Translations under genes and position numbers: made by a program
In this document: positions 1 to 12,432 of the stretch, one piece after another
How positions within the stretch are numbered: position 1 is the stretch's first letter
Layout of the letters: each line of letters opens with the position of its first letter
Assembly: GCA_903889735.1 (NCBI GenBank)
Contig: CAISYQ010000263.1
Span: 1 to 14,592, forward strand
Length of the DNA stretch: 14,592 bases
DNA from: an uncultured Methylibium sp.
GTDB taxonomy: Bacteria; Pseudomonadota; Gammaproteobacteria; Burkholderiales; Burkholderiaceae_C
Direction of reading: 5' to 3'
Notes under the pieces: model-generated
Told to the model about the DNA's origin: nothing
What the model saw: the letters and a program-made list of their open reading frames with translations, nothing else
Database searches by the model: none

Positions 1-1779
1 GCGTTGCTCGACGCTCAACACCTCCGAGAAGCCCGGCATCCCGCCCTCGGGCCGACCATGGCTCAGCCACCAAAAGATGTCGCCGGCCGTGTGCAGGGCG
101 GTGTGGGGTTCGGTCAGGTTGGCGGCCTTGCGGGGCAGGCCTGTGGCGGCCGGGCCGTCGCCTCGGCCACCCTCGCCGTGGCAGCGGGTGCAATGCTGCT
201 GGAAGAGCGCGGCGCCCTGGGCCACCGACACCGCGGTGTAGCCGGTGTCGGTGCGCCGGTAGGTGTCGGGGTAGGCCTCGCCGCTGACCATGGCCAGTCC
301 GGTGACCAGACCCGTCACCGCGACCAGACCCGCCAAGACCATGCGCCGCCGCAGGCCGCTCTCCAGGGCGGGGCTTGGAGCACCCGCCTGCCCCACGGGC
401 GGAGCCGCTTCATACGGCCGCCGCGAGAGGCGCCACAAGGCGTGCAGCAGCACGGCGGTCGCCCCCAGGGCGATCAGCGCGGCCAGCCCGACAGTGACAG
501 CGACCCCTGGCAACTCCCAGCTCGCCGCGAGCGACCACCGAAAGGGCAGCGGCCAGACCCACTGGTCGTGGGCGGCGGGCAGGGTCTCGGTCAAGCGCGC
601 CGCGAGCAGCAGGATGAGCAGCACGAGGCCAAGCTCCACGCCGAGCCAGCGGGTCATCGACCGCCAGGGGCCGGCCTCGGCGGCCGCGGGTGACACGGCA
701 GCCGGCGAGGCCGGCGAAGCGGCGGCCGGCCAGACCGCCGCAGCGGTGAGCAACGGCGTACCGTGAGACTCTGCAGATGAGGGTCTCGCCAGTTCGGCGA
801 CCGCCGAGGCCGTGCCAGCGCCTGGGCCCATGCGCGGCATCCAGACCCAGCGCGCTCGGGCGGCGATCAGGAGCACCGGGATCAAGAGCAGGACCTTGGC
901 CAGCACCAGCTGGCCGTAGTCGCTGCCCAGCAGGGGCGCCACGCTGCGCTCCAGCAGCGTGGTCAGGCCGCCGAGCAGGTCATCGGCCCGGGTGGGCCAG
1001 TCGCGGGGCGCACCCGACTGCAGGTAGGCGGTCACCGTCCCGGTCAGCACCAGCAAGACCACCGATGCGGCGGCCAAGGCCGAGAAGCGGCGCAGCAGGA
1101 CAGCGAGACTTTGGCGGAAGGCCCGCTGCAACGCGAGCGACTCCCCTGGAACGGGATGCCGGGCCAGCCACAGCGCGTACAGCAAGGCCGGCAGGCCGCC
1201 CGCCCAGAACCCCGCGGCCAGGGTGTGCAGCAACTGGCTGAGCCCCGTCAACCACAGCGGCTCGGTCGCCGCGGCATGACCAGCCAGCACGCCGGCGGCG
1301 TTGAAGGTCAGCGCCAGGGCCAGGAGCGGCGCGAGGAGACCGTCATGCCACCCGGAGCCCGGGGGTCGTGGTGGCTGTGCTCCGGTACCCGGTGGTTCTG
1401 ATCCCCGCCGGGCGCCAGGCGGTTTCCGCCCGGTCCTGCCGGCGCCAAGAAGCATCAGCAGCATCGCCAGGGCCAGCGCCTGCCGGCATTGCCAGACCAG
1501 GCCGTAGCGGGTGTCCGCCAGCAGGCGCTCCCACTCGCCCCACTGCAGCAGGGCCTCGGCGCGACCCGTGACCGACACGAGCTGCCAGCCCAGCAGGGCC
1601 GTGTGGGCCAGCAGCACCGCGCCGGTGAGCCAGGGCGCGGCCGCCATCAGCCCGCGCCGCCAGCGGGCCAGGCCCTGCGTTCGCTCGCCACCCGCGAGCG
1701 ACATCAGGGCCAGGCCGCCCAGCAAGACCAGGCCACCGGTCCCCAGCAGCCAACGCAGCGCGGTCGCGAACGCCTCCAT
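1..1779 (-). CDS. copD: CopD-family copper membrane protein fused to a C-terminal class-I cytochrome c domain (3' end beyond left edge of window)
   Basis: Not in the ORF track because there is no stop in the window. Hand translation of the minus strand from ATG 1779..1777 gives 593 stop-free codons down to nt 1. The product reads MEAFATALRWLLGTGGLVLLGGLALMSL...AGVLAGHAAATEPLWLTGLSQLLHTLAAGFWAGGLPALLYALW (CopD-like GHA / HxLAAxxWxGG helices). Further hydrophobic helices follow, then ...YTAVSVAQGAALFQQHCTRCHGEGGRGDGPAATGLPRKAANLTEPH...FWWLSHGRPEGGMPGFSEVLSVEQR. The CxxCH heme motif lies at nt 192..178 and GGMPGF supplies a candidate axial Met. The ATG abuts the copC stop (TGAATG, 1782..1777). 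Confidence 0.8.
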   Translation of the reverse strand, partial: MEAFATALRWLLGTGGLVLLGGLALMSLAGGERTQGLARWRRGLMAAAPWLTGAVLLAHTALLGWQLVSVTGRAEALLQWGEWERLLADTRYGLVWQCRQALALAMLLMLLGAGRTGRKPPGARRGSEPPGTGAQPPRPPGSGWHDGLLAPLLALALTFNAAGVLAGHAAATEPLWLTGLSQLLHTLAAGFWAGGLPALLYALWLARHPVPGESLALQRAFRQSLAVLLRRFSALAAASVVLLVLTGTVTAYLQSGAPRDWPTRADDLLGGLTTLLERSVAPLLGSDYGQLVLAKVLLLIPVLLIAARARWVWMPRMGPGAGTASAVAELARPSSAESHGTPLLTAAAVWPAAASPASPAAVSPAAAEAGPWRSMTRWLGVELGLVLLILLLAARLTETLPAAHDQWVWPLPFRWSLAASWELPGVAVTVGLAALIALGATAVLLHALWRLSRRPYEAAPPVGQAGAPSPALESGLRRRMVLAGLVAVTGLVTGLAMVSGEAYPDTYRRTDTGYTAVSVAQGAALFQQHCTRCHGEGGRGDGPAATGLPRKAANLTEPHTALHTAGDIFWWLSHGRPEGGMPGFSEVLSVEQR

Positions 1780-2298
1780 TCAGGGGCTGGGCGCGGACGC
1801 CTTCAGCGTGAAGCTGTAGCCATGGTCGACGGTGTGCCCATCGACCGACAGCACGCGGTACTTCACCATGTAGACCCCCGGCTCCAGGGCGGGGAGTTCG
1901 AGGACGAGCAGCTTGGGATCCGCCGCGTCCACCTTTGCCGCGCCGATGGCGACCGCCCCCTGGCCCTCGCGGGACAGGCTCACGGAGGCATAGGCCGGCT
2001 CCAGCTTTTCGTTGAACCAGAGCCGCAGGCGCTGCGGCGGCTTGGAGAGCGTGGCGCGCCGTGCCGGCTCGGCCTTGACCAGCGCCGCATGGGCCAGGGC
2101 TGTGCCATGGGCGGACAGCGCCAGGAGGATGGCGAAGCCGGAGGTGATCAGGGTTGAGCGGAGGCCCAAGGGGACAACCAGGCGGGCGCAACAGCGGACA
2201 CCCCAGCGGGCCGCATCGCGGAGGGTCCAGCGGACGGTCCGTTCGGCGATCCAGGGGACCGTCCAGGAGGGGCTCGATCGTGGGGTGAAGGGTGTCAT
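1780..2298 (-). CDS. copC: CopC-domain periplasmic copper-binding protein
   Basis: This is the in-frame part of track ORF 1780..2553. The mature part reads HAALVKAEPARRATLSKPPQRLRLWFNEKLEPAYASVSLSREG...GVYMVKYRVLSVDGHTVDHGYSFTLKA. That matches the CopC signature: N-terminal His after ALA|HA cleavage, LxFxExxE, Y.V.Y.V.S.DGH..G.F.F. ATG 2298..2296 overlaps the esterase stop (ATGA). It would give an unusually long 65-aa presequence. An alternative TTG at 2170..2168 would give a canonical signal peptide, MGLRSTLITSGFAILLALSAHGTALA. Confidence 0.85.
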   Translation of the reverse strand: MTPFTPRSSPSWTVPWIAERTVRWTLRDAARWGVRCCARLVVPLGLRSTLITSGFAILLALSAHGTALAHAALVKAEPARRATLSKPPQRLRLWFNEKLEPAYASVSLSREGQGAVAIGAAKVDAADPKLLVLELPALEPGVYMVKYRVLSVDGHTVDHGYSFTLKASAPSP

Positions 2299-3254
2299 GG
2301 GTCTTTCTGGGGAGATGCCGGAACGTTGGGCGGCGCGATCGGATGCGCGGTACCAGGCCGGTGCCCGGTCAGCAGGAAATCGAGCATCCGCCCCTGCAGG
2401 CCCGGCCATTCGTTGTGGCTGCGACGCCCTTCGCAGTAGAGCACCGGCGCGCCGGGCCGGCAGCCTGCGAAGGCCCTGCAACCGTCGGGGTCGGGGGTGG
2501 CTTCGGTGGCCGTCTGGGGGATCGGCTCGGTGCAGCCGTTGCAGGCCGCCCACCAGTTGGCGGCCTCACGGCCCCAGCCGGGGAAAAGCTGGTCCTGGCT
2601 GCCGTGCATGACCATCACCGGCAGGGGCGCTCGGCAGCCCATTTCCCGCAGGTCCTGGGCGTTGAAGCCGGCGGCGCTGACGGCGATCCCGGCGACGCGC
2701 TCGCGGCTCTCGGGCAGCAGGGCCAGGGCGGTGGAGACCGTGGCGCCATCGGAATGCCCGGTGAAGTAGACCTGCTGGGGGTCGATGCACCAGCGCTCGG
2801 CCACGCTCTGCGCCACGGCGCCCAGGGCAACCACGCTGCGGCGCGACATGGGCCGGTGATCGACATAGGCGACGATGAAACCGCGCCCGGTGGCCTCGGC
2901 CGTGAGTTGGGTGAAGCGCTCGCTGCGCTCGGCGCTGGCGGTGGCAGCGGCATAGACCACCAGCAGCGGATGGGCGACATCGGGGTCGAAATTCGCGGGT
3001 GTGCGCACCTGGTAGGAGAAGCGCGGATCGGTGACCGAGGCCGCGATGCCAGCCGGCGGGATCAGCGCCTGGTCGCAGGCCACTTGGCGCGGCTCGGGAT
3101 ACGCGAAGGTCCTGGCCGGTTCCACCGCGTCCGGGGGGCTGCAGGCGCCCAAAGTGGCAACCGAGAGCAGCATCGGCAGCCGGGAGCGCCACCACCCTCC
3201 CTGGCCCTGCAAGGGCCGATCAGCGCCTGGCTTTTTCCGCAGCGCGGCGGGCAC
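2295..3254 (-). CDS. Secreted lipoprotein esterase, PHB-depolymerase/LpqC-type alpha/beta hydrolase family
   Basis: Lipobox LSVATLGAC is present. The nucleophile elbow is FTGHSDGA (GxSxG). MVMHGSQDQ is a candidate acid block. The C-terminal SHNEWPG matches the GHxWPG His block of this family. Cys pairs (AACNGC, GCRAFAGC) are typical of it. The start is uncertain: GVG 3254 is not meant here, the candidates are GTG 3254 (overlaps the upstream gene by 35 nt), TTG 3212 (gives MQGQGGWWRSRLPMLLSVATLGAC, the best-looking signal peptide) or ATG 3173. Confidence 0.8.
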   Translation of the reverse strand: MPAALRKKPGADRPLQGQGGWWRSRLPMLLSVATLGACSPPDAVEPARTFAYPEPRQVACDQALIPPAGIAASVTDPRFSYQVRTPANFDPDVAHPLLVVYAAATASAERSERFTQLTAEATGRGFIVAYVDHRPMSRRSVVALGAVAQSVAERWCIDPQQVYFTGHSDGATVSTALALLPESRERVAGIAVSAAGFNAQDLREMGCRAPLPVMVMHGSQDQLFPGWGREAANWWAACNGCTEPIPQTATEATPDPDGCRAFAGCRPGAPVLYCEGRRSHNEWPGLQGRMLDFLLTGHRPGTAHPIAPPNVPASPQKDP

Positions 3255-3921
3255 GGCCCGAGGCCCCGTAGAGCAGGAAGCCGGCCACCGGCACCAGGAG
3301 CATCAGCAGGTAGCTGCCATAGGGCGTGCGGGGCTCCCCGACGCTGAACGGGAAGCGCGAAACGTACTGCTGCTTCTCGCCCGCGGACACCAGCCCGACA
3401 TAGCGGCCAGGCTGCAGGAAGTTGTGCTCGAGCGGCACGCTGCCCGCCGGGTAGAGCCTGGGCGGCAGGTGGAGCAAGGTGATGGCGTCGAGCGGTCCGG
3501 CCTCGCCGTCTCCCTTGCCAACCTCATTCCCACCGCCTGATCCGGTATCCCGGATGATCCTGACCTCGACCGGCATGGCGCGCAGCGCCTCATCGACCAT
3601 GTCCATCACCACGACGGTGGGTCCGACCTGGGGAATGTCTTCGCAGAATTCCCGGTTGCCGTTGGCCAGAGGCTGGTAGCCCGCGAAATGCATCGAGTAC
3701 GGGCCAACGGTCAGCTTGCACTGGTCTTCGTCCATGCTGAGACCGCCATGGGCGGCAGCCCCCAGGGGCAGCGCCAAGGCGGCGGTCTGCAGCACCACCC
3801 TGAGAAAGCCAGCGGCTGCGCTGCAGATCCGGTCGCCCAGGCGGTGCCGCGCCGCCTTTCGCACGAGGCTTTCGACCCGCCCTGCCCGGACCCCGCTAGG
3901 CACCGTCGTCATGCGGCTCAA
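3220..3921 (-). CDS. Secreted protein with C-terminal TM anchor, PmoD/AmoD-like by position and architecture (putative copper protein)
   Basis: Signal peptide ...LQTAALALPLGAAA|HGGLSMDEDQCKLTVGPYSMHFAGYQPLANGNREFCEDIP. A ~150-aa soluble domain follows, then one C-terminal TM helix (YGSYLLMLLVPVAGFLLYGA) and a basic tail (RARRAAEKARR). The mature N-terminus is His. Two Cys lie 25 residues apart with Met/His between them. The gene sits immediately after pmoB. The start is TTG 3921 (TTGA overlap with the pmoB stop) or ATG 3912. CDS existence ~0.8; the functional call is much weaker. Confidence 0.45.
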   Translation of the reverse strand: MSRMTTVPSGVRAGRVESLVRKAARHRLGDRICSAAAGFLRVVLQTAALALPLGAAAHGGLSMDEDQCKLTVGPYSMHFAGYQPLANGNREFCEDIPQVGPTVVVMDMVDEALRAMPVEVRIIRDTGSGGGNEVGKGDGEAGPLDAITLLHLPPRLYPAGSVPLEHNFLQPGRYVGLVSAGEKQQYVSRFPFSVGEPRTPYGSYLLMLLVPVAGFLLYGASGRARRAAEKARR

Positions 3922-5183
3922 ACGCCCGGCCCTGTCTTGAAGACCGGCACGATCGGCCCGTAGACCTCGGCGACCTGGCGCTTGCCCTCGGGATCGTAGA
4001 AGAAGATCAGTCCGCCGGTGCGGCTGTCCACGTTCGACAGGAAGCTCACCAGCCGCTCCAGCTCCCAGGCGGCGTCGGTGGCGTCGAGCTTGACGATCCG
4101 TGTCTCGCCCGGCTGCAGCGGCGCGTCAGAGCTCAGCACCAAGCCGCTGGCAGGGACCAGCTCCTTGGGGAAGGTGGGTGATACGGCCGCCATCGCGGCA
4201 TCGACCTTGCGGTTCACGAAGCGCAGGCCGGCGGTCGTGAACTCACCGATCTGCAGCGGTTGGCTCGAACGGTTGGTGAACTCCGCGGTGATCCGCATGC
4301 TGCGGCCCGGTACGTCGTACTCGGCACGCTTGAGCTGGATGTCGACCAGCTTGGGCGACTCGGGCAGCGGTGGCGTGTAGACCGAGCCGGCCTGCAGCGG
4401 CACCAACTGCGGGAAGGCCTGGACGGTCTGGCTGTAGCCGTAGATGACGATGCCCAACACCAACACGAACAGGCCTGCCGCGACCTTGTCGTCGGTGGAC
4501 GTGACCAGCAGGTCCTCGCGCCCCTTCTGCAGGGCAACCCAGCGGGGAATGATCAGCGGCCGCCGCAGCCACCACAGAAGCCAAGCCACGCCGATCAGCC
4601 CATAGCCGAATTGCCATAGCTGCACCCGGGCGACGTTGTAGGTCTGGAGATCGTCGATCACGGTGCCGTGCAGGGTGGTGACCGGTGCCTTGAAGTCGGC
4701 CTCGTCGCCGGCGACCTCGATCCAGCTGCCGGGACCGACGATGGCGCCAGCACCTTGCACGTTGAGCACCGGGTGAAGGTGCCAGCGGCCTGGCATGCGG
4801 CCCTTCATCACGATCTTGAAGTCGTAGTCGCGACCGAGCTCGAGGTCGCGGGCCGATTGCTGGGCCGGCATGTCGTTGATGTAGGACTCCACCCGGGTCA
4901 GCACCGCACCCGGCGAGCCGTTGGACAGGAACACCAGCTTGGGCTTGCTGACGGCATCCGGCCAGTCGCTGAGCAGCCGTAATTTCCCTTTCATGGTGAC
5001 CGTCTGGTTGACGTCGAGCTTGTCGGTCGACCAGCTCATGTCATACCAGTGGACGGTGCGGGTACGGATGTAGGGCTCGGTCGCCCGCTCACCATGGGCC
5101 AGTGCAGGCTCGGGCAGCACGGTGAGCAGCAGCGTCAGGAGGGCCAGCGCCCCCAGCAGGGCTTGGCGGAGGAGGCGGCTCAT
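3918..5183 (-). CDS. pmoB: Copper membrane monooxygenase subunit B (PmoB/AmoB family)
   Basis: Internal start of track ORF 3918..5702 at ATG 5183..5181, in an ATGA overlap with the pmoA stop. The product is MSRLLRQALLGALALLTLLLTVLPEPALA|HGERATEPYIRTRTVHWYDMSW...GRWHLHPVLNVQGAGAIVGPGSWIEVAG. Two central TM helices and a C-terminal cupredoxin-like half follow (EFTTAGLRF...GETRIVKLDATDAAWE...GGLIFFYDPEGKRQV). It aligns collinearly with M. capsulatus PmoB as I recall it. The 173 codons upstream in the track ORF are an out-of-frame overlap with pmoA. Confidence 0.95.
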   Translation of the reverse strand: MSRLLRQALLGALALLTLLLTVLPEPALAHGERATEPYIRTRTVHWYDMSWSTDKLDVNQTVTMKGKLRLLSDWPDAVSKPKLVFLSNGSPGAVLTRVESYINDMPAQQSARDLELGRDYDFKIVMKGRMPGRWHLHPVLNVQGAGAIVGPGSWIEVAGDEADFKAPVTTLHGTVIDDLQTYNVARVQLWQFGYGLIGVAWLLWWLRRPLIIPRWVALQKGREDLLVTSTDDKVAAGLFVLVLGIVIYGYSQTVQAFPQLVPLQAGSVYTPPLPESPKLVDIQLKRAEYDVPGRSMRITAEFTNRSSQPLQIGEFTTAGLRFVNRKVDAAMAAVSPTFPKELVPASGLVLSSDAPLQPGETRIVKLDATDAAWELERLVSFLSNVDSRTGGLIFFYDPEGKRQVAEVYGPIVPVFKTGPGV

Positions 5184-6013
5184 GGGGCCACCTCGGCCTT
5201 CGCGCTGGCTGGGGCATCGGCCTTGGCGCTGCTGCCCCCGAAGATCGCTTTGTAGCGGGCCCCGGCCGGAATGAAGCGGGTGCCGCAGGCCGCGATCGCC
5301 ATCCACCAGAACGCGATGTACACGAAGATGCAGATGAAGGCCGAGAAGAAGGCCGAGACCCAGTTGGCGGAGTCTTGGAAGGTCCGGAGCGTTCCGCGCT
5401 CGATGATGCGGATGTACTCGGGCGTGCCCGAGCGCGGGAAGGTGTAGCCGATCAGGTCGGCCAGCGAGGTCATTTGCCCCATGTGTTCGACCGGCTGGAA
5501 ATAGGGTGCGAGGTAGATCCAGTTGCTGGGAAAGAACATCAGACCGTAGACCACACCCCCGAACACCCCCGTCAGCACCCAGCTGCGGGTGAGACACAGG
5601 ATGGCGTCCAGCGCCAGCGCGCCCATCAGGCAGGTGGAGGGCAGGACCAGGCTGATCGGGAAATGCGCCATGCCCTGCCAGCTGTGGTACCGGACGATCC
5701 ACACACCGACCAGGAACAGCAGCAGGCTGGCGGTGGCGCCGATCGGCAGGCGGAACAGGTGCCAGAACAGCCCCTGGAAGGCTGCCGCCATCATCATGGT
5801 CACGATGGGCGTGATCAACACCCAGTACTGGCGGTCCTTCCAGTCGATGAAGAAGTCCCAGTCACCCGCGAACAGCAGGAAACTGATGTGGGTCACGGCC
5901 CAGACCAGGAAGGCCGCGATCACGATGATCATCAGGTCGAAGGTTCTCGACCACTTCGCCACCTGCGGGGACATCCCGGCAACGTCTAGCACCTTCTGGG
6001 AACTGGAAATCAT
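5180..6013 (-). CDS. pmoA: Copper membrane monooxygenase subunit A (PmoA/AmoA family)
   Basis: AGDWDFFIDWKDRQYWVLITPIV and RSGTPEYIRIIERGTLRTF...VSAFFSAF are hallmark PmoA/AmoA blocks. The protein has about 7 hydrophobic helices. It is 277 aa with an Ala/Lys-rich C-terminal tail (GGSSAKADAPASAKAEVAP). There is no obvious SD before ATG 6013. Confidence 0.95.
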   Translation of the reverse strand: MISSSQKVLDVAGMSPQVAKWSRTFDLMIIVIAAFLVWAVTHISFLLFAGDWDFFIDWKDRQYWVLITPIVTMMMAAAFQGLFWHLFRLPIGATASLLLFLVGVWIVRYHSWQGMAHFPISLVLPSTCLMGALALDAILCLTRSWVLTGVFGGVVYGLMFFPSNWIYLAPYFQPVEHMGQMTSLADLIGYTFPRSGTPEYIRIIERGTLRTFQDSANWVSAFFSAFICIFVYIAFWWMAIAACGTRFIPAGARYKAIFGGSSAKADAPASAKAEVAP

Positions 6014-6046: not shown

Positions 6047-6838
6047 TCACTCAGCGGCGGCTGGCATGGCGGCATCGACCTGTTTGAACAGCTCGGCCAT
6101 GCGCATCAGCACTTGCAGCAACACGCCGCCCAGCGCCAGACCGGTCCAGCCCAGGATGGGGAAGCCCCAGTGCAGCGGGTGGCTGAAGATCTCCTCGGTC
6201 AACCAGAAGGCGTGGCCCCACTCGTTGTAGCCGAGGTTGGGCAGGATCAGCCCTGGGCCGAGCACGGCCATGATCAGCGGCACCGAGAAGGAGTCGGCAA
6301 AGCGCGGGATGCGCGTCATCGCGTAGAGCATGGTGCTGACCCCGAGCACGATGTAGAGCGGCACGCAGGCATAGAACAGCACGATGTGGCTGGGCGTCAG
6401 TGCCGTGTCGCGGATCACCGTCTGGTGCCAGGTGGCATCACCCTCACCGTAGAAGCTGGCCACCCACAGGAAGGAGAAGGTGTAGACGATGAACCAGGCG
6501 ACCAGGTTGAAGTGCCGACGCAGCTCGGTCTCGGGCGACAGGCGGTCCATGTGCTTGTCCCGGCTCATCCACAGGTAGAGCCACATCACGATGCCGGTGC
6601 CGAAGATCAGCGGCACCTCCAGCTTGAAGAGCGTCACCCAGTGGGTCGCGAATTCCGGCGTGGTGGAGTCCAGGCCGTACTTGAAGGCGAAGGCCTGCTG
6701 GTAGAAGCGCAGCCCCACATAGATGGCCATCAGCACGCCCCAACCGATCGCCACCGGGGCGACGTTGAACATCTTGCGTTCCTTGGGGGCGACCGCTGCG
6801 CGGGGCAGCAGGTTTGGGGAAGCCGCTTGGGTCAGCAT
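6047..6838 (-). CDS. pmoC: Copper membrane monooxygenase subunit C (PmoC/AmoC family)
   Basis: FYGEGDATWHQTVIRDTALTPSHIVLFY and LPNLGYNEWGHAFWLTEEIFSHPLHWGF are hallmark PmoC blocks. I chose ATG 6838..6836 (M29 of track ORF 6047..6922). It is preceded by the SD AGGAGA (revcomp of 6845..6850) at 6-nt spacing. The upstream 28 codons look non-coding. Confidence 0.95.
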   Translation of the reverse strand: MLTQAASPNLLPRAAVAPKERKMFNVAPVAIGWGVLMAIYVGLRFYQQAFAFKYGLDSTTPEFATHWVTLFKLEVPLIFGTGIVMWLYLWMSRDKHMDRLSPETELRRHFNLVAWFIVYTFSFLWVASFYGEGDATWHQTVIRDTALTPSHIVLFYACVPLYIVLGVSTMLYAMTRIPRFADSFSVPLIMAVLGPGLILPNLGYNEWGHAFWLTEEIFSHPLHWGFPILGWTGLALGGVLLQVLMRMAELFKQVDAAMPAAAE

Positions 6839-7100
6839 GGTCGTTCTCCTGAGTGACGATGAGGAACAGATCGGGGTCGTGGGGGGATCGTCAGCACAGG
6901 CGATGACGACTCCCAAAACCAATGCCCTTCAACAACGACCGCCAACAAGGGCGAGGCGTTGCCAAGGCGATCCACAGTGTTGCACAGCAACCGCACCCGG
7001 AGAACGGGTATTCACCCCCATAGATGCCGACCGAGGGTGGGCACCCTCCCCTACCCGCCGCCTGAAGACGGGGTTCCGCACACCCGCTGTCAGGCGGGTG
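6839..7100 (-). promoter_or_regulatory. pmoC promoter plus structured 5' leader (exact promoter not identified)
   Basis: 262-nt non-coding gap, less GC-rich than the flanks, ending in a strong SD. Several short inverted repeats are present. TGACGAT (6854..6860), ATCGTCA (6887..6893) and TGACGA (6904..6909) could form alternative hairpins. Others are GTTGC-ACA-GCAAC (6979..6991), ACCCG-GAGAA-CGGGT (6995..7009) and GAGGGT-GGGC-ACCCTC (7033..7048). I found no convincing -35/-10 pair by eye. Confidence 0.4.
7081..7100 (-). terminator. Stem-loop directly after the thioesterase-GNAT stop; weak candidate terminator or insulator
   Basis: CACCCGC-tgtcag-GCGGGTG forms a 7-bp GC-rich stem with a 6-nt loop. 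It abuts the stop codon at 7103..7101. No U-tract follows on the minus strand (…GCGGGUG UGCGGAACCCC), so it is not a canonical intrinsic terminator. Confidence 0.25.
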
Positions 7101-7964
7101 TCAAAGCGTCTGCGCCATGGCCTGGTGCGGCAGACCGGCCTCCTGGAACGCCGCCCCGATCGCTGCAAAGCCGTGCCGGGCGTAGAAGCCCACGGCCGAG
7201 GCCTGGGCGTGGAGCACCACCTCGCGGTCCTCACGAGCGCGGGCGGCGGTCAGCAAGGCGTCGAGCACCGCCCTGCCCGCCCCGGCGCCACGCAGCAGGG
7301 AGCAGGTCGCCATGCGGCCGACCTTGGAGACCCCAGACCTGACCGCCACCAGCCTCCCGCAGGCCAGAGGCAGGCCCAGGCGGTTGAAGGCCACGGCATG
7401 CACCGCTCCGGCGTCGGCATCGTCCGTGAGCAGGTCGGCGGCGATGCCCTGCTCCACCACGAACACCTCCTGCCGGATCGCAGTCGATGCGCCGGCCCAC
7501 TCGGACCAAGCCCCGACGCTCACCTCGAGCATGGGCTCGCCCGCCTCGAAGCCCAGGAGCAGTGCGCGCAGCCCGGCAGGCACAGGCTGGGGCGTCTGGG
7601 CCGTGGCGTCGGCGAATACGTAGACCAACTCGCCACTGACCAGCAGACGCTCCTGCCGGAAGACGGCGCCGCGCAGGAGGATGGAGCTGTTGCCGATCCG
7701 CTCGCAGCGCACGCCGATCTCCAACGTCTCGTCGAAGCGCGCCGAGGCGTGGTACTCGAGCGTGGCCTTGCGCACGAAGAGGTCGCCGCCGAAATGCTGC
7801 AGCGTGGCCTCATAGGGCAGCGCCATCGCCCGCCACCAGCCCGCCACGGCGGTGTCCAGGTACATCAGGTAATGACCGTTGAAGACGATGCGCTGCAGGT
7901 CAACCTCGGCCCAGCGCACACGCAGCCTCTCGAGGTGGCGGAAATGGCCTCGCTCCAGATCCAT
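7101..7964 (-). CDS. Fusion protein: N-terminal YbgC/4HBT-type hotdog acyl-CoA thioesterase plus C-terminal GNAT N-acetyltransferase
   Basis: ATG 7964..7962 is preceded by AAGGAGG (revcomp of 7972..7978) at 7-nt spacing. The track ORF extends to 8078 but that part looks non-coding. The N-terminal half reads LRVRWAEVDLQRIVFNGHYLMYLDTAVAGWW...IGNSSILL (4HBT/YbgC pattern with the Asp). The C-terminal half reads IRQEVFVVEQG...AVHAVAF...GRLV...KVGRMATCSLLRGAGAGRAVLDALL...LHAQASAVGFYARHGF (GNAT motif A, R/Q-x-x-G-x-G/A). Confidence 0.85.
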   Translation of the reverse strand: MDLERGHFRHLERLRVRWAEVDLQRIVFNGHYLMYLDTAVAGWWRAMALPYEATLQHFGGDLFVRKATLEYHASARFDETLEIGVRCERIGNSSILLRGAVFRQERLLVSGELVYVFADATAQTPQPVPAGLRALLLGFEAGEPMLEVSVGAWSEWAGASTAIRQEVFVVEQGIAADLLTDDADAGAVHAVAFNRLGLPLACGRLVAVRSGVSKVGRMATCSLLRGAGAGRAVLDALLTAARAREDREVVLHAQASAVGFYARHGFAAIGAAFQEAGLPHQAMAQTL

Positions 7965-8076
7965 GGCTCGCCCTCCTTTGGCAGCTTGGGGTGGCGCCGG
8001 CAACGTGGCGCGCCGGCTGGGGGCAAGCATACTGGCGCTCCATCCCTCCGCAACCTGCCTCCGAAGCCCGCCCACC
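7965..8076. promoter_or_regulatory. Divergent intergenic region between the thioesterase-GNAT gene and the alcohol dehydrogenase gene
   Basis: 112-nt gap between divergently oriented starts. It contains a near-direct repeat, GTGGCGCCGGC (7991..8001) and GTGGCGCGCCGGC (8006..8018), and a CATACT -10-like hexamer (8028..8033). No clear -35 element and no SD precede ATG 8077. Confidence 0.25.
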
Positions 8077-9213
8077 ATGCCGCAGATTTTCTACATTACC
8101 CAGATCCAGTTCGATTTCGGCGCGGTCCGCGAGCTGGCGGCCGAGTGCGCGCGCGTCGGCATCCACCGCCCGCTTGTCATCACCGACGCCGGCGTGCGGG
8201 CCGCGGGCGTGCTGCAGCCGGCGCTCAAAGCCCTGCGCGAACTGCCGGTGGCGGTGTTTGACGGTACGCCCTCCAACCCCACCGAGGCGGCCGTGCGCGC
8301 TGCCCGGGCGGTCTGGGACGCCCACCGCGCCGACGGCCTGGTGGCGGTGGGTGGCGGCTCCAGCATCGATCTCGCCAAGGCCCTGGCGATCCATGCCACC
8401 CACCCCGGGCCGCTCAAGACCTACGCCACCATCGAGGGCGGCTCCACCCTCATCACCGCGGCGGTCGCCCCGCTGATCGCCGTGCCCACCACCGCCGGGA
8501 CCGGCAGCGAGGTGGCGCGCGGCGCCATCCTCATCGTCGATGACGGCCGCAAGCTGGGATTCCACAGCTGGCACCTGGTGCCGCGCGCGGCCATCTGCGA
8601 TCCAGAACTCACGCTCGGCCTGCCCGCCGGCCTGACGGCGGCCACTGGCATGGATGCGGTGGCCCACTGCATGGAGACCTTTCTCTCGGCCGCCTTCAAC
8701 CCGCCCGCCGACGGCATCGCACTCGATGGCCTGGCCCGAGCCTGGACACACATCGAGCGCGCCACCCGCGACGGCAGCGACCGCGAGGCGCGTCGCCAGA
8801 TGATGAGCGCCTCCATGCAGGGCGCGATGGCCTTCCAGAAAGGCCTGGGCTGCGTGCACAGCCTCAGCCACAGCCTGGGCGGCGTGAACCCGCGCCTGCA
8901 CCACGGCACGCTCAACGCGATGTTCCTGCCGGCGGTGCTGCGTTTCAACGCGCAGGCCGAGAGCGTGCGGGCCGAGAAACGCCTGGAACGCATGGCGCAG
9001 GCCATGGGCCTGGCCTCGGCCGGCGATGTGGCCGTCGCGGTGGCCGACATGAACGCACGCCTGGGCCTGCCCACGGGCTTGGCCGCCCTGGGGGTGGCAC
9101 AGAACGCTTTCGACCACATCGTCGCAGGCGCACTGGCCGATCACTGCCACAAGACCAATCCGCGTGTCGCGGGTGCCGACGACTACCGACAGATGCTGAC
9201 CGAGGCGCTATGA
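8077..9213 (+). CDS. Iron-containing (family III) NAD(P)-dependent alcohol dehydrogenase, 4-hydroxybutyrate-dehydrogenase-like
   Basis: M67 of track ORF 7879..9213. The product starts MPQIFYITQIQFDFGAVRELAAEC. Other blocks are FDGTPSNPTE, VAVGGGSSIDLAKA (GGGSxxDxAK), PLIAVPTTAGTGSEV, and the metal His blocks MDAVAHCMETF and CVHSLSHSLGG...LHHG. The whole length resembles the Cupriavidus Gbd-type enzyme as I recall it. Confidence 0.9.
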   Translation: MPQIFYITQIQFDFGAVRELAAECARVGIHRPLVITDAGVRAAGVLQPALKALRELPVAVFDGTPSNPTEAAVRAARAVWDAHRADGLVAVGGGSSIDLAKALAIHATHPGPLKTYATIEGGSTLITAAVAPLIAVPTTAGTGSEVARGAILIVDDGRKLGFHSWHLVPRAAICDPELTLGLPAGLTAATGMDAVAHCMETFLSAAFNPPADGIALDGLARAWTHIERATRDGSDREARRQMMSASMQGAMAFQKGLGCVHSLSHSLGGVNPRLHHGTLNAMFLPAVLRFNAQAESVRAEKRLERMAQAMGLASAGDVAVAVADMNARLGLPTGLAALGVAQNAFDHIVAGALADHCHKTNPRVAGADDYRQMLTEAL

Positions 9214-9297: not shown

Positions 9298-10092
9298 ATG
9301 GCCTTCACTCATCTCGCATCCAGATCGGTCCGGACCGCGCTTGTGGCGCTTGCCGGCCTCCTGTCGGTTGCGGCGGCCTCGGCCCAGGAAAACAGCCTGC
9401 TGATCTACTGCGGCATCACCATGGTGAGGCCGATCACCGAGCTGGCGCGCAGTTTCGAGCAGCAGGAAAAGATCAAGATCGACATCTCCCAGGGGGGCTC
9501 CGAAGACCTCTACCGGAGCGTGCGCAAGAGCCGCACGGGCGACCTCTACCTCCCCGGGGAGCCCTCCTACCGCAGCAAGTACCTTGCCGAGGGCCTGCTG
9601 GGCGACGTCAAGGTGGTCGGCTACAACCAGATGGCGATCTTCGTGCCCAAGGGCAACCCGAAGAAGGTGCAGCCCGACCTGAAGGAACTGCTGCGCAAGG
9701 ACCTGGTCCTGACGATCGGCAATGCCGAGAGCGGCAGCGTTGGCCAGGAATCCAAGGCCATACTCGACCGCGCCAACCTGTATCCCAAGGTCGTCTCGCA
9801 GGCCGCCTTCCTGATGCCCGATTCGAGGGCCATCAACCTCGCCCTCAAGCGCGGCGATGCGGATGCGGCGTTGAACTGGCGCGCCACCGCCTTTTTCCCT
9901 GACAACGCCCCCCAGATCGATGTGGTGGATCTCGATCCCCGCATCGCCAAGCCGCAGGCGCTGCTGCTCAACCTGCTCACTTTCTCTCGCAACCCCACAC
10001 TGGCCGCCAAGTTCATGGCCTATGCCGCCTCCGGCGAGGGCCAGGCGGTGTTCCGCAAGTACGGCTTCCTGGACAACAGCCAGGTCCGCTGA
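9298..10092 (+). CDS. Periplasmic type-II substrate-binding protein, ModA/oxyanion-binding-like fold (probable sensor co-receptor)
   Basis: SD AAGGA (9286..9290). Signal peptide MAFTHLASRSVRTALVALAGLLSVAAASA|QE. The pattern LLIYCGITMVRPITELARSFEQQEKIKIDISQGGSEDLYRSV...GDLYLPG resembles ModA-type binding proteins (ModA has AAASL...SFGSSG...DVFISA). However, the canonical anion-binding Ser positions are changed. No ABC permease or ATPase gene follows; a sensor kinase does. Confidence 0.8.
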   Translation: MAFTHLASRSVRTALVALAGLLSVAAASAQENSLLIYCGITMVRPITELARSFEQQEKIKIDISQGGSEDLYRSVRKSRTGDLYLPGEPSYRSKYLAEGLLGDVKVVGYNQMAIFVPKGNPKKVQPDLKELLRKDLVLTIGNAESGSVGQESKAILDRANLYPKVVSQAAFLMPDSRAINLALKRGDADAALNWRATAFFPDNAPQIDVVDLDPRIAKPQALLLNLLTFSRNPTLAAKFMAYAASGEGQAVFRKYGFLDNSQVR

Positions 10093-10107
10093 CCCGCGGT
10101 CGACGCC

Positions 10108-12420
10108 GTGCACCGCCCGATCGAGACCGCGACCGCCTCGGGCAAGGCCGGACTGGCCCTGCTCGGCCTGTTCCTGGCGGGTTTCTCGGCCATCGTCGGT
10201 GTCAGCGTGGTGATCTCCAGCCTGATCGCGGACCTGGACCGCCAGAGCGCCAACGAGCGCGCGCGGCTGGTCGTCGGTGAGGAGATCGTGACCACGGTGC
10301 ACCAGATCGAACGGCTGTTCTACCAGCTGCCTCAGCTCACGAGCGAGGCCAGCCGAGCGCGACCGCTCAAGCAGATCGCCGAGGCCACGCAACACATCGA
10401 CGATGCCCTGGCCGTGCTCCAGCGCGGAGGCCGGCTGCAGCGGCGGGTGGCGCTCAATGTCTATGGCCTCGACGAGATGGTCAGCGAGGTGATCTACCGA
10501 CCCTCGGGCGACGCGGAGAAGGTCGTGCTGGAGGTCATCGAGATCGCGCCGCATGCGGACCAGATCAGGGAGCGCATGGTGGTGCTGCAAGACCTGCTCC
10601 AGGCCCGCGATGCCTGCGCCGACGCCGATCTGGCCTGCCGGCAGTCGGTGGGCGAGCGCCTGAGTGTCTACTTCAAGGTCACGCCGGCATTCTTCTTTCG
10701 CCTCGGCGAAAACGCCAACCGCCTGCTGTTCGAGAGCAACAAGCTGCTGACCGATCTGGAGCAGCGGCTGGCCGAGCAGCAACGCAACCTGCGCCGCACC
10801 CAGCTCGGCGTGGTGATCCTGGTGGTGTTCTCGGTCATGGGGCTGAGCGGCTTTTTCCTGCGCCGCATCAACGCCGCACATGGCCAGATGCAGAGGGCCA
10901 TGGAACAGGCCGAGGCAGCCAACCGGGCGAAGTCAGAGTTCCTCGCCAACATGAGCCATGAGATCCGCACGCCGATGAACGCCATCCTGGGCTTCGCGCA
11001 GCTCATGCAGGAATCCGAGCTCCCCAAGCGCCAGCGCGCCCATCTTGACAGCGTGCAGAGAGCGGCTCGCGCGTTGCTGCGCATCCTCAACGACATCCTT
11101 GACTACTCCAAGATCGAGGCCGGCCGCCTGGATCTGGAGGTGGCGCCCTTCGACCTGCCCGAGCTGCTGGCCGGCGTGGAGGACCTGTTCTCCTTCCAGG
11201 TCTCGGACAAGGGGTTGCGGCTCGAGGTCCGCATCGATCCCACGCTGCCAAGTGCCCTGCTCGGCGACGCCACGCGCCTGCGGCAGGTGCTCGTCAATTT
11301 GGTGGGCAATGCGCTGAAGTTCACCGAATCCGGCGGCATCCGGGTCGACATCGAGCGCGGCCCGCAGGAGGGTGCCGACCTGGCGCTGGCGGTGGCCGTG
11401 CAGGACACCGGCATCGGCATGAGCGCCGAGCAGCTGGCCCGCATCTTCTCGGCCTTCTCCCAGGCCGACACCTCGATCACGCGGCGCTTTGGCGGCACCG
11501 GGCTGGGGCTCTCGATCTCCAGCCAGTTGGTTGCCCTGATGGGGGGCCAGCTCTCGGCGGACAGCCAGCCGGGCCGGGGGTCGACCTTCCGCTTCACGGT
11601 CCGGGTGGGCATCGCACCCCACGGCGGACAGGCCGCGCCGGCATCGGCGACGCCCGCCCAGGACGGCAGCGCCTGCCTGGCGCAGGCAGCGCGCCTGAAG
11701 GGCGCCAAGGCCTTGCTGGTGGAGGACATGGAGGCCAACCGCATGCTCCTGACGGCCCTGCTCGAGGGACTGGGCATGGCGGTCACCTCCGCGGTCAACG
11801 GCCGCGAGGCGGTGGAGCGCTGCGCCAGCGAGCGCTTCGACGTCATCCTGATGGATCTGCAGATGCCCGAGATGGACGGCTTTGAGGCCACCCGCCGCAT
11901 CCGGGCCGATCACCCGCAGGACGCGCCACCGGTGATCGCGGTATCGGCCTCGGCCCTGCTGCGCGACCGCCAGGCCTGCCTGGCCGCGGGGATGGTCGAC
12001 CATGTGGCCAAACCCATCGAGCGGGATCGCTTGCTTGCCTCCTTGCTGCAGTGGATTCCGGTGACCGCGGTGGCTGTCGATCCAGGTCCCGCGGCAGAGG
12101 ATGGTGCGCAGGGGGGGGCATCCGCTGACGCAGGCTCCCCGGCCTCACAGCTCGGGGGCCGGGCGCCGATACCGCCGGCGGGACGCGGTACCGACAAGCC
12201 GCTCGACCGGGCCGCGCTCGATCCGCTCCTGGCCGAGCTCGGACCGCTGTTGCAGAACAACCTCATGACGGCCCGACGGGTCGTCGAATCCATCGAGACC
12301 CTGGTCGAGGACACTGCGGTGTCTGGCGCCTTCCAGCCGGTGTCCGACGCCACGGGCAAGCTGCGGTTCAAGGACGCCCTGGCTGCCCTGGCCAGGTTCC
12401 GGGCCGACATGGCCCTCTGA
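10108..12420 (+). CDS. Membrane hybrid sensor histidine kinase (TM - ~190-aa periplasmic helical domain - TM - HisKA - HATPase_c - REC - His-less C-terminal helical tail)
   Basis: GTG start lies 15 nt after the SBP stop. TM1 is GLALLGLFLAGFSAIVGVSVVISSLI. TM2 is LGVVILVVFSVMGLSGFFL. H-box is [15 protein letters not shown] (H284, nt 10957..10959). N/G boxes are VNLVGNALKFT, DTGIGM, GGTGLGLSIS. The REC acceptor is ILMDLQMPEMDG (D583, nt 11854..11856), with KPI present. The last ~80 aa contain no His, so this is not a functional Hpt. Confidence 0.9.
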   Translation: MHRPIETATASGKAGLALLGLFLAGFSAIVGVSVVISSLIADLDRQSANERARLVVGEEIVTTVHQIERLFYQLPQLTSEASRARPLKQIAEATQHIDDALAVLQRGGRLQRRVALNVYGLDEMVSEVIYRPSGDAEKVVLEVIEIAPHADQIRERMVVLQDLLQARDACADADLACRQSVGERLSVYFKVTPAFFFRLGENANRLLFESNKLLTDLEQRLAEQQRNLRRTQLGVVILVVFSVMGLSGFFLRRINAAHGQMQRAMEQAEAANRAKSEFLANMSHEIRTPMNAILGFAQLMQESELPKRQRAHLDSVQRAARALLRILNDILDYSKIEAGRLDLEVAPFDLPELLAGVEDLFSFQVSDKGLRLEVRIDPTLPSALLGDATRLRQVLVNLVGNALKFTESGGIRVDIERGPQEGADLALAVAVQDTGIGMSAEQLARIFSAFSQADTSITRRFGGTGLGLSISSQLVALMGGQLSADSQPGRGSTFRFTVRVGIAPHGGQAAPASATPAQDGSACLAQAARLKGAKALLVEDMEANRMLLTALLEGLGMAVTSAVNGREAVERCASERFDVILMDLQMPEMDGFEATRRIRADHPQDAPPVIAVSASALLRDRQACLAAGMVDHVAKPIERDRLLASLLQWIPVTAVAVDPGPAAEDGAQGGASADAGSPASQLGGRAPIPPAGRGTDKPLDRAALDPLLAELGPLLQNNLMTARRVVESIETLVEDTAVSGAFQPVSDATGKLRFKDALAALARFRADMAL

Positions 12421-12432
12421 AGCCTCACCCCC

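What the first reader, a model, noticed from the sequence alone, without database searches (positions are those of the whole stretch)
2295..3254. Lipoprotein esterase (PHB-depolymerase/LpqC family) embedded in a monooxygenase/copper operon
The protein has a lipobox (LGAC), a GHSDG nucleophile elbow and an SHNEWPG His block. These identify an exported serine hydrolase. I do not know of esterases as standard members of pmo/amo/copCD clusters. Here its stop overlaps the copC start (ATGA), so it is very likely co-expressed. One hypothesis is hydrolysis of an ester formed downstream of hydrocarbon oxidation. Another is processing of a periplasmic or outer-leaflet compound linked to copper acquisition. 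A third is a maturation or repair role for the membrane enzyme.
Basis: partly seen in the sequence, partly recalled or inferred. Interest (0 to 1): 0.6.

Follow-up and report, generated by a model that had tools for sequence, protein, structure and literature searches.

The report
Esterase that travels with copper monooxygenases
The gene is a real, exported serine esterase from a small uncharacterised family found almost only in bacteria that carry a copper membrane monooxygenase (methane, ammonia or alkane oxidisers), usually next to the copper protein PmoD, so it is probably an overlooked helper of these enzymes rather than the storage-polymer depolymerase it is annotated as.

Summary
Window 2295-3254 (-) encodes a 319-aa protein at most, with a lipobox (LGAC), GHSDG, Asp221 and His280, and eight Cys that are invariant in 82 relatives. 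It lies between a PmoD homologue (PDB 6CPD, E 7e-19) and copC, in a pmoCAB-pmoD-esterase-copC-copD::cyt c operon.

It is not a lineage-specific insertion. The family has no Pfam model and about 144 clusters at 50% identity. It tracks CuMMO genes:
- In 151 Nitrospiraceae genomes, 23 of 24 with the esterase also have AmoB, and 125 have neither.
- In 401 Burkholderiales genomes, an intact esterase occurs only in the 5 PmoB-positive genomes that are not AOB-like.
- Of the 80 best loci in species genomes, 21 carry pmoCAB within 10 kb. Of 50 others tested, 43 carry PmoB elsewhere.
- PmoD lies within 100 nt of the esterase in 32 of 83 loci, in either order.

It was not found in sampled alpha-methanotroph-like or beta-AOB-like genomes, and was found in only 45 of 101 Methylococcales. 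Comammox papers call it phaZ, of unknown role.

It is most likely a periplasmic carboxylesterase serving CuMMO assembly, copper supply or maintenance together with PmoD. The substrate is unknown. A first-reader note on another genome (e1-2641065) reported the same arrangement.

The parts
2295..3254 (-). Esterase gene (maximal ORF, 319 aa). Alternative starts are TTG 3212 and ATG 3173.
3141..3152 (-). Lipobox L-G-A-C (residues 35-38). Cys38 would be the lipidated first residue of the mature protein.
   Evidence: A lipobox-like motif is present in 21 of 23 pmoCAB-linked relatives and 28 of 32 Nitrospira relatives.
2745..2759 (-). Nucleophile elbow G-H-S-D-G (Ser168).
   Evidence: Invariant in 82 of 82 relatives.
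2592..2594 (-). Catalytic Asp221 (HGSQD).
   Evidence: Invariant in 82 of 82.
2415..2417 (-). Catalytic His280 (SHNEWPG).
   Evidence: 81 of 82, with one gap.
3220..3921 (-). PmoD/AmoD homologue with a Cx8MH...C motif and a C-terminal TM helix. It is the most frequent neighbour of the esterase family.
   Evidence: PDB 6CPD, E 7e-19; alignment A2; adjacency table.
3918..5183 (-). pmoB-like gene.
   Evidence: PF04744, E 3e-137.
5180..6013 (-). pmoA-like gene.
   Evidence: PF02461, E 1e-77.
6047..6922 (-). pmoC-like gene (maximal ORF; the true start is probably further in).
   Evidence: PF04896, E 4e-85.
1780..2298 (-). copC. The start is either ATG 2298, overlapping the esterase stop, or TTG 2169.
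   Evidence: PF04234, E 5e-20; sequence read.
1..1779 (-). copD fused to a c-type cytochrome domain. It runs off the window.
   Evidence: PF05425, PF00034.

Best explanation
The gene encodes a periplasm-facing carboxylesterase. It is probably lipid-anchored (lipobox), is stabilised by four disulfides, and has a Ser168-Asp221-His280 triad. It is transcribed with pmoCAB, pmoD and copCD.

It belongs to a small, Pfam-less family within the feruloyl-esterase / acetyl-xylan-esterase / PHB-depolymerase branch of the alpha/beta-hydrolases. That family's distribution follows copper membrane monooxygenases across Nitrospirota (comammox), Methylococcales, Cycloclasticus-type alkane oxidisers, Binatia, and the substrate-unknown CuMMO clades of Burkholderiales, Rhodocyclales and Alphaproteobacteria.

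Shown here: the fold, the catalytic residues, export signals, synteny, genome-level co-occurrence, and presence in RNA libraries.

Inferred: it is an accessory enzyme of the CuMMO system that works in the same periplasmic step as PmoD (copper supply, assembly or upkeep of the membrane enzyme). It would do so by hydrolysing an ester bond in a small ligand, lipid or acylated protein. It does not process a product of the monooxygenase. Its absence from several CuMMO lineages means the role is auxiliary or replaceable.
For: Fold and chemistry:
- Model pLDDT is 81.7.
- Foldseek top hits are 8jh8 feruloyl esterase (E 8e-13), 9j07 acetyl-xylan esterase and 8daj PHB depolymerase.
- The triad and eight Cys are invariant in 82 relatives.

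Synteny:
- The esterase is linked to pmoCAB in at least four different gene orders: CABD-Est-copCD, Est-CABDD-copCD, CABD-copCD-Est and Est-copCD-CABD.
- PmoD is within 100 nt on the same strand in 32 of 83 loci, in both orders.
- From the PmoB side, all four close metagenome loci have CAB-PmoD-esterase.

Co-occurrence:
- Relatives: 3 of 41 genomes have PmoB, and the same 3 have the esterase.
- Burkholderiales: of 401 genomes, an intact esterase occurs only in the 5 PmoB-positive genomes outside the AOB-like genus, and in 0 of 390 PmoB-negative genomes.
- Nitrospiraceae: of 151 genomes, 23 have both, 1 has the esterase only, 2 have AmoB only and 125 have neither. The esterase-only genome has a PmoD-like gene 4 kb away.
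- 43 of 50 genomes whose esterase locus lacks pmoCAB have PmoB elsewhere.
- A PmoB-less genome keeps only a C-terminal esterase fragment, in front of copCD.

Co-evolution: esterase and PmoB distances correlate (Mantel r 0.55, 0 of 5000 permutations reached it).

Expression:
- Contigs from four freshwater metatranscriptomes cover 2405-2943 at 98-100% identity.
- In the deepest run, depth falls steadily from pmoC to copD, as expected for one operon.

Substrate-independence: the same family accompanies ammonia, methane and alkane oxidisers.
Against: - No biochemical datum exists, and the substrate is unknown.
- The esterase was not found in 7 PmoB-positive Beijerinckiaceae (alpha-methanotroph-like) genomes or in the six AOB-like Burkholderiales genomes. 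It is in only 40 of 85 PmoB-positive Methylococcales. CuMMOs therefore work without it.
- In most comammox genomes it is not next to any amo or copper gene.
- Structure prediction gave no support for a direct esterase-PmoD complex (ipSAE 0.00). The tool states this is no evidence against binding.
- No RNA contig bridges a gene junction, and DNA carry-over in the RNA libraries cannot be excluded.
- Related genomes are not independent observations.
Confidence: 0.6

Rival explanations
1. It is a catabolic esterase. It would hydrolyse an ester that arises downstream of hydrocarbon oxidation by this particular CuMMO, for example an acetate ester.
For: - In the closest clade (Rhodoferax locus L019 and L008), the esterase is followed by an aldehyde dehydrogenase and an acetyl-CoA hydrolase/transferase before copCD.
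- The window has an iron alcohol dehydrogenase upstream.
- The nearest solved relatives cleave small acyl esters.
Against: - The same family, with identical catalytic and Cys residues, accompanies comammox ammonia monooxygenase and gammaproteobacterial methane monooxygenase. Neither of these yields an ester.
- The protein is exported, while the dehydrogenases and CoA enzymes beside it are cytoplasmic.
- No Baeyer-Villiger-type enzyme that could make an ester is in the window.
Confidence: 0.1
2. It is a PHB/PHA depolymerase (phaZ), as public annotations and the comammox literature name it. It would be used to mobilise or scavenge polyhydroxyalkanoate.
For: - JGI and NCBI name relatives 'polyhydroxybutyrate depolymerase'.
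- There is a remote match to the catalytic domain of extracellular short-chain PHA depolymerases (NF050058, E 2e-12).
- A single-domain PHB depolymerase (8daj) is among the top fold matches.
- Palomo et al. and Yang et al. call it phaZ.
Against: - Scores are far below the curated cut-offs: 47 against 150 bits, and 23 against 108. There is no Pfam Esterase_PHB hit.
- No substrate-binding domain follows the catalytic domain.
- A periplasmic lipoprotein or TM anchor is the wrong place both for cytoplasmic granules and for external polymer.
- It is present in genomes without PhaC_N: comammox G045 and G064, and gamma-methanotroph G074. Both papers note missing PHA synthesis genes.
- It was not found in the sampled alpha-methanotroph-like genomes. 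By general knowledge, those are the PHB-accumulating methanotrophs.
Confidence: 0.07
3. It is a passenger gene. It was caught once on a mobile CuMMO/copper island and co-inherited, with no functional tie to the monooxygenase.
For: - CuMMO operons move horizontally.
- Gamma-methanotroph copies are flanked by IS66 and IS4-type transposases.
- The gene is dispensable in many CuMMO lineages.
- Co-evolution with PmoB is only partial (r 0.55).
Against: - Every catalytic and disulfide residue is kept across four phyla.
- Linkage has been re-created in at least four gene orders.
- In comammox the gene lies at an unlinked locus yet still co-occurs almost perfectly with amoB.
- Only truncated relics were seen in the two PmoB-less Burkholderiales genomes that hold a fragment.
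Confidence: 0.12

Closest known systems
Fungal and bacterial CE1-type feruloyl and acetyl-xylan esterases (PDB 8jh8, 9j07, 8iyb) and the LC-Est1 C-terminal esterase domain (3wyd)
   Same: - Alpha/beta-hydrolase fold with the Ser-Asp-His order (8jh8: TM 0.75 on the target, 21% identity; phmmer E 7e-8).
- Secreted and disulfide-bonded.
- Shared NGC-type Cys motif after the acid residue.
   Different: - Those enzymes are free secreted enzymes acting on plant cell-wall esters.
- This protein is a membrane-anchored periplasmic protein of chemolithotrophs and hydrocarbon oxidisers, with eight invariant Cys and an invariant GHSDG.
- It has no carbohydrate context and has a fixed genomic partner (PmoD/CuMMO).
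PHB-depolymerase-family esterases (TIGR01840 / NF050058 / Pfam Esterase_PHB; LpqC-type COG3509; PDB 8daj)
   Same: Remote sequence homology to the catalytic domain (NF050058, E 2e-12). It shares the same clan, and the lipoprotein form resembles LpqC-type proteins.
   Different: It falls below all curated thresholds. It has no substrate-binding domain. Its occurrence does not follow PHA synthesis genes.
The comammox Nitrospira 'phaZ' noted by Palomo et al. (bioRxiv 10.1101/138586) and Yang et al. 2020 (PMC7078480)
   Same: It is the same protein family. The Nitrospira sp. LK70 copy is locus L065 of my set. Both papers report it as comammox-specific, similar to Methylococcaceae genes, transcribed, and of unknown role.
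   Different: Those papers read it as a storage-polymer enzyme or a relic. They did not connect it with PmoD, CuMMO operons or other phyla. Here it sits inside the operon.
Known CuMMO accessory genes: pmoD/amoD/amoE, copC, copD, PCuAC (Fisher et al. 2018, PMC6189053)
   Same: It has the same kind of evidence as those genes: restricted to CuMMO-encoding genomes, periplasmic, and encoded in extended pmo/amo operons.
   Different: It is a hydrolase, not a copper-binding protein. It was not reported by that paper's Pfam/TIGRFAM-based neighbourhood analysis. My inference is that it was missed because the family has no Pfam model. It was not found in the alpha-methanotroph-like and beta-AOB-like genomes sampled here; by that paper, those groups are where pmoD/amoD lies in the operon.

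Membership tests
Alpha/beta-hydrolase serine esterases | Alpha/beta-hydrolase fold with the nucleophile elbow GxSxG, then the acid, then His, in that order | tested here: met
   Model pLDDT 81.7 with a beta-alpha-beta core. There are 1049 PDB fold matches at E<=0.001, all hydrolases of this fold among those listed. GHSDG, D221 and H280 are invariant.
PHB depolymerase family esterase (TIGR01840) / extracellular scl-PHA depolymerase type 1 catalytic domain (NF050058) / Pfam Esterase_PHB PF10503 | Score at or above the curated model cut-off | tested here: not met
   NF050058 scores 47.1 bits against 150. TIGR01840 scores 22.9 against 107.85. PF10503 is not among the Pfam hits at E<=0.01.
Extracellular PHB depolymerases | Catalytic domain followed by a linker and a C-terminal substrate-binding domain, secreted free | tested here: not met
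   The protein ends about 35 residues after His280 in a non-conserved Pro-rich tail. The N-terminus is a lipobox or TM anchor.
Bacterial lipoproteins | Signal peptide ending in a lipobox [LVI][ASTVI][GAS]C | tested here: inconclusive
   LGAC is present and all three candidate starts keep it. Gly at position -2 is unusual. A lipobox-like motif occurs in 49 of 55 relatives of the pmoCAB-linked and main Nitrospira clades, but in none of the gamma-methanotroph clade. No dedicated predictor or experiment was available.
LpqC-type esterases (COG3509) | Assignment to COG3509, or homology to M. tuberculosis LpqC | not tested
   Only indirect: the JGI name 'polyhydroxybutyrate depolymerase' on relatives. 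No COG library or LpqC sequence was at hand.
CuMMO accessory genes (operational class, like pmoD/copCD) | Restricted to genomes that encode a CuMMO | tested here: met
   Nitrospiraceae: 23 both, 1 esterase only, 2 AmoB only, 125 neither. Burkholderiales: 5 of 5 intact copies are in PmoB-positive genomes and 0 of 390 in the others. 64 of 71 top-hit genomes are PmoB-positive.
CuMMO accessory genes (operational class, like pmoD/copCD) | Recurrent operonic linkage with pmo/amo or copper genes in unrelated lineages | tested here: met
   Among the 83 loci examined (the 80 best loci plus the window, L008 and L018), 24 have pmoCAB within 10 kb, and 32 have PmoD within 100 nt. At least four gene orders occur.
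CuMMO accessory genes (operational class, like pmoD/copCD) | A phenotype or physical association with the enzyme | not testable with these tools
   Complex prediction with PmoD gave no support (ipSAE 0.00). No genetics or biochemistry exists for this family in the papers searched.

The most novel reading that the evidence does not exclude
This family is a dedicated, so far unrecognised enzymatic component of the CuMMO support machinery. It would be a periplasmic esterase acting with PmoD to load copper or to assemble or repair the membrane enzyme. Comammox AMO and the hydrocarbon-type CuMMOs would need it for full activity. That would make it a candidate missing factor for reconstituting or heterologously expressing these enzymes.
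Probability: 0.3. Interest if true: 0.8.

Novelty: new variant of a known kind. Interest (0 to 1): 0.62.

Why it matters
Copper membrane monooxygenases drive aerobic methane oxidation and bacterial nitrification. They lose most of their activity when isolated and resist heterologous expression, so the field is looking for missing partners.

A hydrolase with a phylogenetic profile as CuMMO-specific as PmoD's, and usually encoded beside PmoD, is a concrete and testable candidate. Earlier neighbourhood analyses probably missed it because the family has no Pfam model (my inference).

It also gives an alternative reading of the puzzling comammox-specific 'phaZ'. It provides a marker that separates comammox from nitrite-only Nitrospira about as well as amoB in the 151 genomes sampled. 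It warns against counting this gene as PHB or plastic-degrading potential in metagenome surveys.

Tried and rejected
- **Complex prediction.** Esterase (residues 38-300) with the PmoD periplasmic domain (57-200), using my own alignments, gave ipSAE 0.00. The controls were not run. This is no support and no evidence against (a first job was lost).
- **Co-transcription proof.** Metatranscriptome contigs are 110-600 nt and none bridges the pmoD/esterase or esterase/copC junction. Only presence and a 5'-to-3' depth gradient can be reported.
- **Rhizobiales sample.** The 301 genomes held no other CuMMO genome, so alpha-methanotrophs were reached through the Beijerinckiaceae family instead.
- **Literature.** Searches for pmoD + esterase, CuMMO + depolymerase, pmoD + copD + hydrolase, and Methylomicrobium + depolymerase + pmoCAB + copper found nothing relevant. 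Khadka et al. 2018 and a 2026 AMO review do not mention an esterase.
- **pxmABC idea.** The idea that the esterase follows pxmABC in Methylococcales was rejected as too loose. By my hand count, 10 of 14 genomes with a pxm-like PmoB have the esterase.
- **Distant family members.** P0201 (E 3e-58) has no CuMMO gene within 8 kb, and P0233 is on a 2-kb contig. The association is therefore claimed only for the core family, above roughly 240 bits.
- **Untested lineages.** Actinobacterial, verrucomicrobial, NC10, Nitrosococcus and archaeal CuMMO lineages were not tested.
Full report
**1. What is in the window**

The minus strand carries seven co-oriented genes:
- a pmoC-like gene (6047-6922);
- a pmoA-like gene (5180-6013);
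- a pmoB-like gene (3918-5183);
- a 233-aa ORF (3220-3921);
- the esterase (2295-3254);
- copC (1780-2298);
- a copD::cytochrome c fusion that runs off the window (1-1779).

The 233-aa ORF has no Pfam or NCBIfam hit. It matches the solved PmoD of Methylocystis (6CPD) at E 7e-19 over its periplasmic domain. It has a Cx8MH...C motif and a C-terminal TM helix. The esterase therefore lies between PmoD and CopC. No promoter-like site, and no terminator-like site above the shuffled expectation, lies inside the operon.

**2. The observation**

The esterase ORF translates without a stop to 319 aa. It has:
- LGAC at residues 35-38;
- GHSDG at 166-170;
- HGSQD, with Asp221;
- SHNEWPG, with His280.

Three in-frame starts are possible:
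- GTG 3254 overlaps pmoD by 35 nt.
- TTG 3212 gives a 23-residue signal with an Arg-Ser-Arg n-region.
- ATG 3173 leaves only 10 residues before the Cys. Gene callers used it for the 99%-identical database protein P0002.

Each start keeps the lipobox.

The ATGA overlap with copC is real. However, a TTG at 2169 gives a normal Sec signal ending just before the mature His of CopC. Translational coupling is therefore possible, not shown.

**3. Fold and family**

Pfam gives only sub-threshold alpha/beta-hydrolase hits. NCBIfam gives a remote match to the catalytic domain of extracellular short-chain PHA depolymerases (E 2e-12; 47 bits against a cut-off of 150) and to TIGR01840 (23 against 108).

By sequence, the nearest solved proteins are:
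- a fungal feruloyl esterase (8jh8, E 7e-8);
- a protein listed as a feruloyl esterase in the sequence search and as acetyl-xylan esterase B in the fold search (9j07);
- LC-Est1C (3wyd).

An AlphaFold model built on alignment A1 is confident (pLDDT 81.7, pTM 0.79). Its best fold matches are the same proteins plus the single-domain PHB depolymerase 8daj.

In the ESM Atlas, the nearest clusters, which are likely the protein's own, carry no Pfam family. A profile search of 1.84 billion cluster representatives finds only 144 clusters at E<=1e-30. This is a small, well-delimited family.

In 82 members taken from genomes of four phyla, the following are invariant or nearly so (81 of 82):
- GHSDG, Asp221 and His280;
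- Trp283, Tyr52 and His95;
- eight Cys (60, 156, 207, 238, 241, 259, 265, 274).

The eight Cys, together with a lipobox (49 of 55 in two large clades) or an N-terminal hydrophobic anchor (gamma-methanotroph clade), place the protein outside the cytoplasm.

**4. Is the esterase conserved at CuMMO loci?**

Yes.
- Among 41 relatives of the window's genome, only three have PmoB (G000, G006, G010). The same three have a strong esterase hit.
- The gene orders differ. The window has CABD-Est-copCD, G010 has Est-CAB-D-D-copCD, and G006 has CABD-copCD-x-Est.
- A metagenome contig with a 57%-identical esterase has C-A-B-D-Est followed by an aldehyde dehydrogenase.
- A scan of species-representative genomes found 406 relatives. 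The best 80 come from Rhodoferax, Acidovorax, Methylibium, Sterolibacterium, Vitreoscilla, Extensimonas, Bradyrhizobium, Xanthobacteraceae, Hyphomicrobium, Rhodocyclales, Cycloclasticus symbionts, Binatia, many Nitrospira and many Methylococcaceae.
- Of those 80 loci, 21 carry pmoCAB within 10 kb and three more carry a lone amoC next to the esterase.
- Across all 83 loci examined, a PmoD homologue lies within 100 nt on the same strand in 32.
- Searching from the PmoB side in metagenomes, all four close loci show CAB-PmoD-esterase. Two of them duplicate earlier loci.

**5. Genome-level co-occurrence**

- Of 50 genomes whose esterase locus shows no pmoCAB, 43 have PmoB/AmoB elsewhere. This includes 26 of 29 Nitrospira-type genomes, which are therefore comammox-type.
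- In an even sample of 151 Nitrospiraceae, 24 have the esterase and 25 have AmoB. 23 have both and 125 have neither. The one esterase-only genome has a PmoD-like gene 4 kb from the esterase, so it is probably an incomplete comammox bin.
- In 401 Burkholderiales, 11 have PmoB. Six of these belong to one genus and five of the six carry 2-3 copies. The tool does not name them; I read them as AOB-like. They lack the esterase. The other five have an intact esterase 0.6-4.5 kb from pmoB.
- None of the 390 PmoB-negative Burkholderiales has an intact copy. Two have C-terminal fragments, and one fragment sits directly in front of copC-copD.
- The link is not universal. Seven PmoB-positive Beijerinckiaceae and three complete AOB-like genomes give nothing at E<=1e-5.
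- In 101 Methylococcales, 45 have the esterase, 85 have PmoB and 40 have both. By my hand count from those two tables, genomes whose PmoB is of the divergent, Cycloclasticus-like kind almost always have the esterase (17 of 18). Many complete genomes with two identical canonical pmoB copies do not.

**6. Evolution**

On a quick maximum-likelihood tree of 83 esterases, the window falls in a starred clade of nine Burkholderiales, Rhodocyclales and Neisseriaceae sequences, all pmoCAB-linked. Context labels need only 10 changes, against a mean of 42 for shuffled labels.

Nitrospira sequences form two separate clades. One is sister to the gamma-methanotroph clade and lies next to amoC. This agrees with Palomo et al.'s remark on similarity to Methylococcaceae.

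Esterase and PmoB distances correlate (Mantel r 0.55; 0 of 5000 permutations reached it). The two genes therefore travel together partly, not strictly.

**7. Expression**

Four freshwater metatranscriptome runs from different studies hold contigs that are 98-100% identical to 2405-2943 of the esterase and to the other operon genes. In the deepest run, the summed depth falls as follows:

| Gene | Depth |
|---|---|
| pmoC | about 54 |
| pmoA | 21-42 |
| pmoB | 10-18 |
| pmoD | 12 |
| esterase | about 5 |
| copC | about 3 |

This pattern fits a polar operon better than DNA carry-over. Assembler depths are crude, however, and no contig bridges a junction.

Yang et al. report transcription of the comammox homologue in a genome without a PHA synthase.

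**8. What it most likely does**

Shown: it is an exported Ser-Asp-His hydrolase whose nearest characterised relatives cleave carboxylic esters. It is encoded with PmoD, CopC, CopD and the CuMMO, and its family is restricted to CuMMO genomes.

Inferred: because the same family accompanies enzymes that oxidise ammonia, methane and short alkanes, its substrate should be common to the enzyme system, not to the carbon pathway.

Two kinds of neighbour recur:
- copper-handling proteins (PmoD above all, then CopCD);
- in one Nitrospira-type clade, a singleton amoC with an SPFH protein, and FtsH nearby.

Both point to supply, assembly or upkeep of the membrane enzyme in the periplasm. Which ester is cut cannot be said from sequence. 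Candidates are a copper ligand, a phospho- or lysolipid at the enzyme, or an acyl adduct on a protein.

The direct-complex test with PmoD was uninformative.

**9. Rivals**

- **Catabolic esterase.** The aldehyde dehydrogenase and acetyl-CoA hydrolase/transferase that follow the esterase in Rhodoferax-type loci favour this. The comammox and methanotroph members and the periplasmic location contradict it.
- **PHB depolymerase.** This rests on names and remote homology. It is contradicted by the sub-threshold scores and the missing binding domain. It is also contradicted by the anchor, and by carriers without PhaC_N. The alpha-methanotroph-like genomes sampled lack the esterase too.
- **Passenger gene.** This fits the patchy distribution and the IS elements around methanotroph copies. 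It does not fit the invariant active site, the repeated re-linkage, the unlinked but still co-occurring comammox copies, or the truncated relics in CuMMO-less genomes.

**10. Novelty**

The enzyme class is ordinary. What is new is the family-level association.
- Two comammox papers noted a comammox-specific 'phaZ' of unknown role.
- The PmoD paper's neighbourhood analysis was based on Pfam and TIGRFAM. I infer that this is why it did not pick the esterase up, since the family has no Pfam model.
- No paper found in the searched library links an esterase to PmoD or to CuMMO operons.
- Within this scan, a first-reader note on another genome described the same arrangement, an esterase between a PmoD-like gene and copC.

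I rate it a new variant of a known kind, with moderate to high interest.

Noticed in passing
L058:7356-10810 (Methylotuvimicrobium), with the same layout in 14-18 other Methylococcaceae loci; also L030:10840-11205 and L051:10590-11186: Gamma-methanotrophs share a module: a divergent LysR regulator, then a 108-aa EthD-domain protein, (a variable gene), a PmoD-like gene and the esterase. The module is often flanked by IS66/IS4 transposases. The same EthD-like gene sits right after the esterase in two betaproteobacterial pmoCAB loci. EthD may be a third recurrent partner.
   Followed up: partly
L019:6705-9688 and L008:10979-12409: In the Rhodoferax-type loci closest to the window, an aldehyde dehydrogenase and an acetyl-CoA hydrolase/transferase are inserted between the esterase and copCD. 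This hints at a C2-type substrate for this CuMMO clade.
   Followed up: partly
L090:1013-13512: In a Nitrospira-type clade, a singleton amoC is directly followed by the esterase, a small ORF, an SPFH/Band-7 protein and a Zn-ADH. A sigma-54 activator, FtsH and a PmoD-like gene lie upstream. This looks like a membrane-protein quality-control setting.
   Followed up: no
L106:9795-11856 (G318, a Burkholderiales genome without PmoB): A C-terminal esterase fragment (residues ~214-294) lies directly upstream of intact copC and copD::cyt c. It looks like a relic of the esterase-copCD module after loss of the monooxygenase.
   Followed up: partly
L023 vs L024; L079 and L089 vs L077/L081: Identical or near-identical contigs are filed under very different MAG taxonomies: Bradyrhizobium versus Ca. 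Sulfotelmatobacter, and Beijerinckiaceae and Burkholderiaceae MAGs versus Methylomonas isolates. These are probably binning errors, and they inflate apparent host range.
   Followed up: no
window 1780-2298: CopC has a long, poorly supported N-terminal extension if it starts at the ATG that overlaps the esterase stop. A TTG at 2169 gives a canonical signal peptide ending before the mature N-terminal His.
   Followed up: partly
window 7101-8078 (-) and 7879-9213 (+): A thioesterase(4HBT)-GNAT fusion protein and an iron-type alcohol dehydrogenase lie just upstream of pmoC. Their maximal ORFs overlap on opposite strands, so the starts need checking.
   Followed up: no
window 9298-14592 (+): A ModA-like periplasmic binding protein is followed by two hybrid histidine kinases, not by ABC transporter genes.
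   Followed up: no
window 1800-5200: Near-identical DNA is present in at least 20 freshwater, lake, wetland, estuary and shale-gas metagenome runs from many studies. This organism and locus are widespread in fresh water.
   Followed up: no
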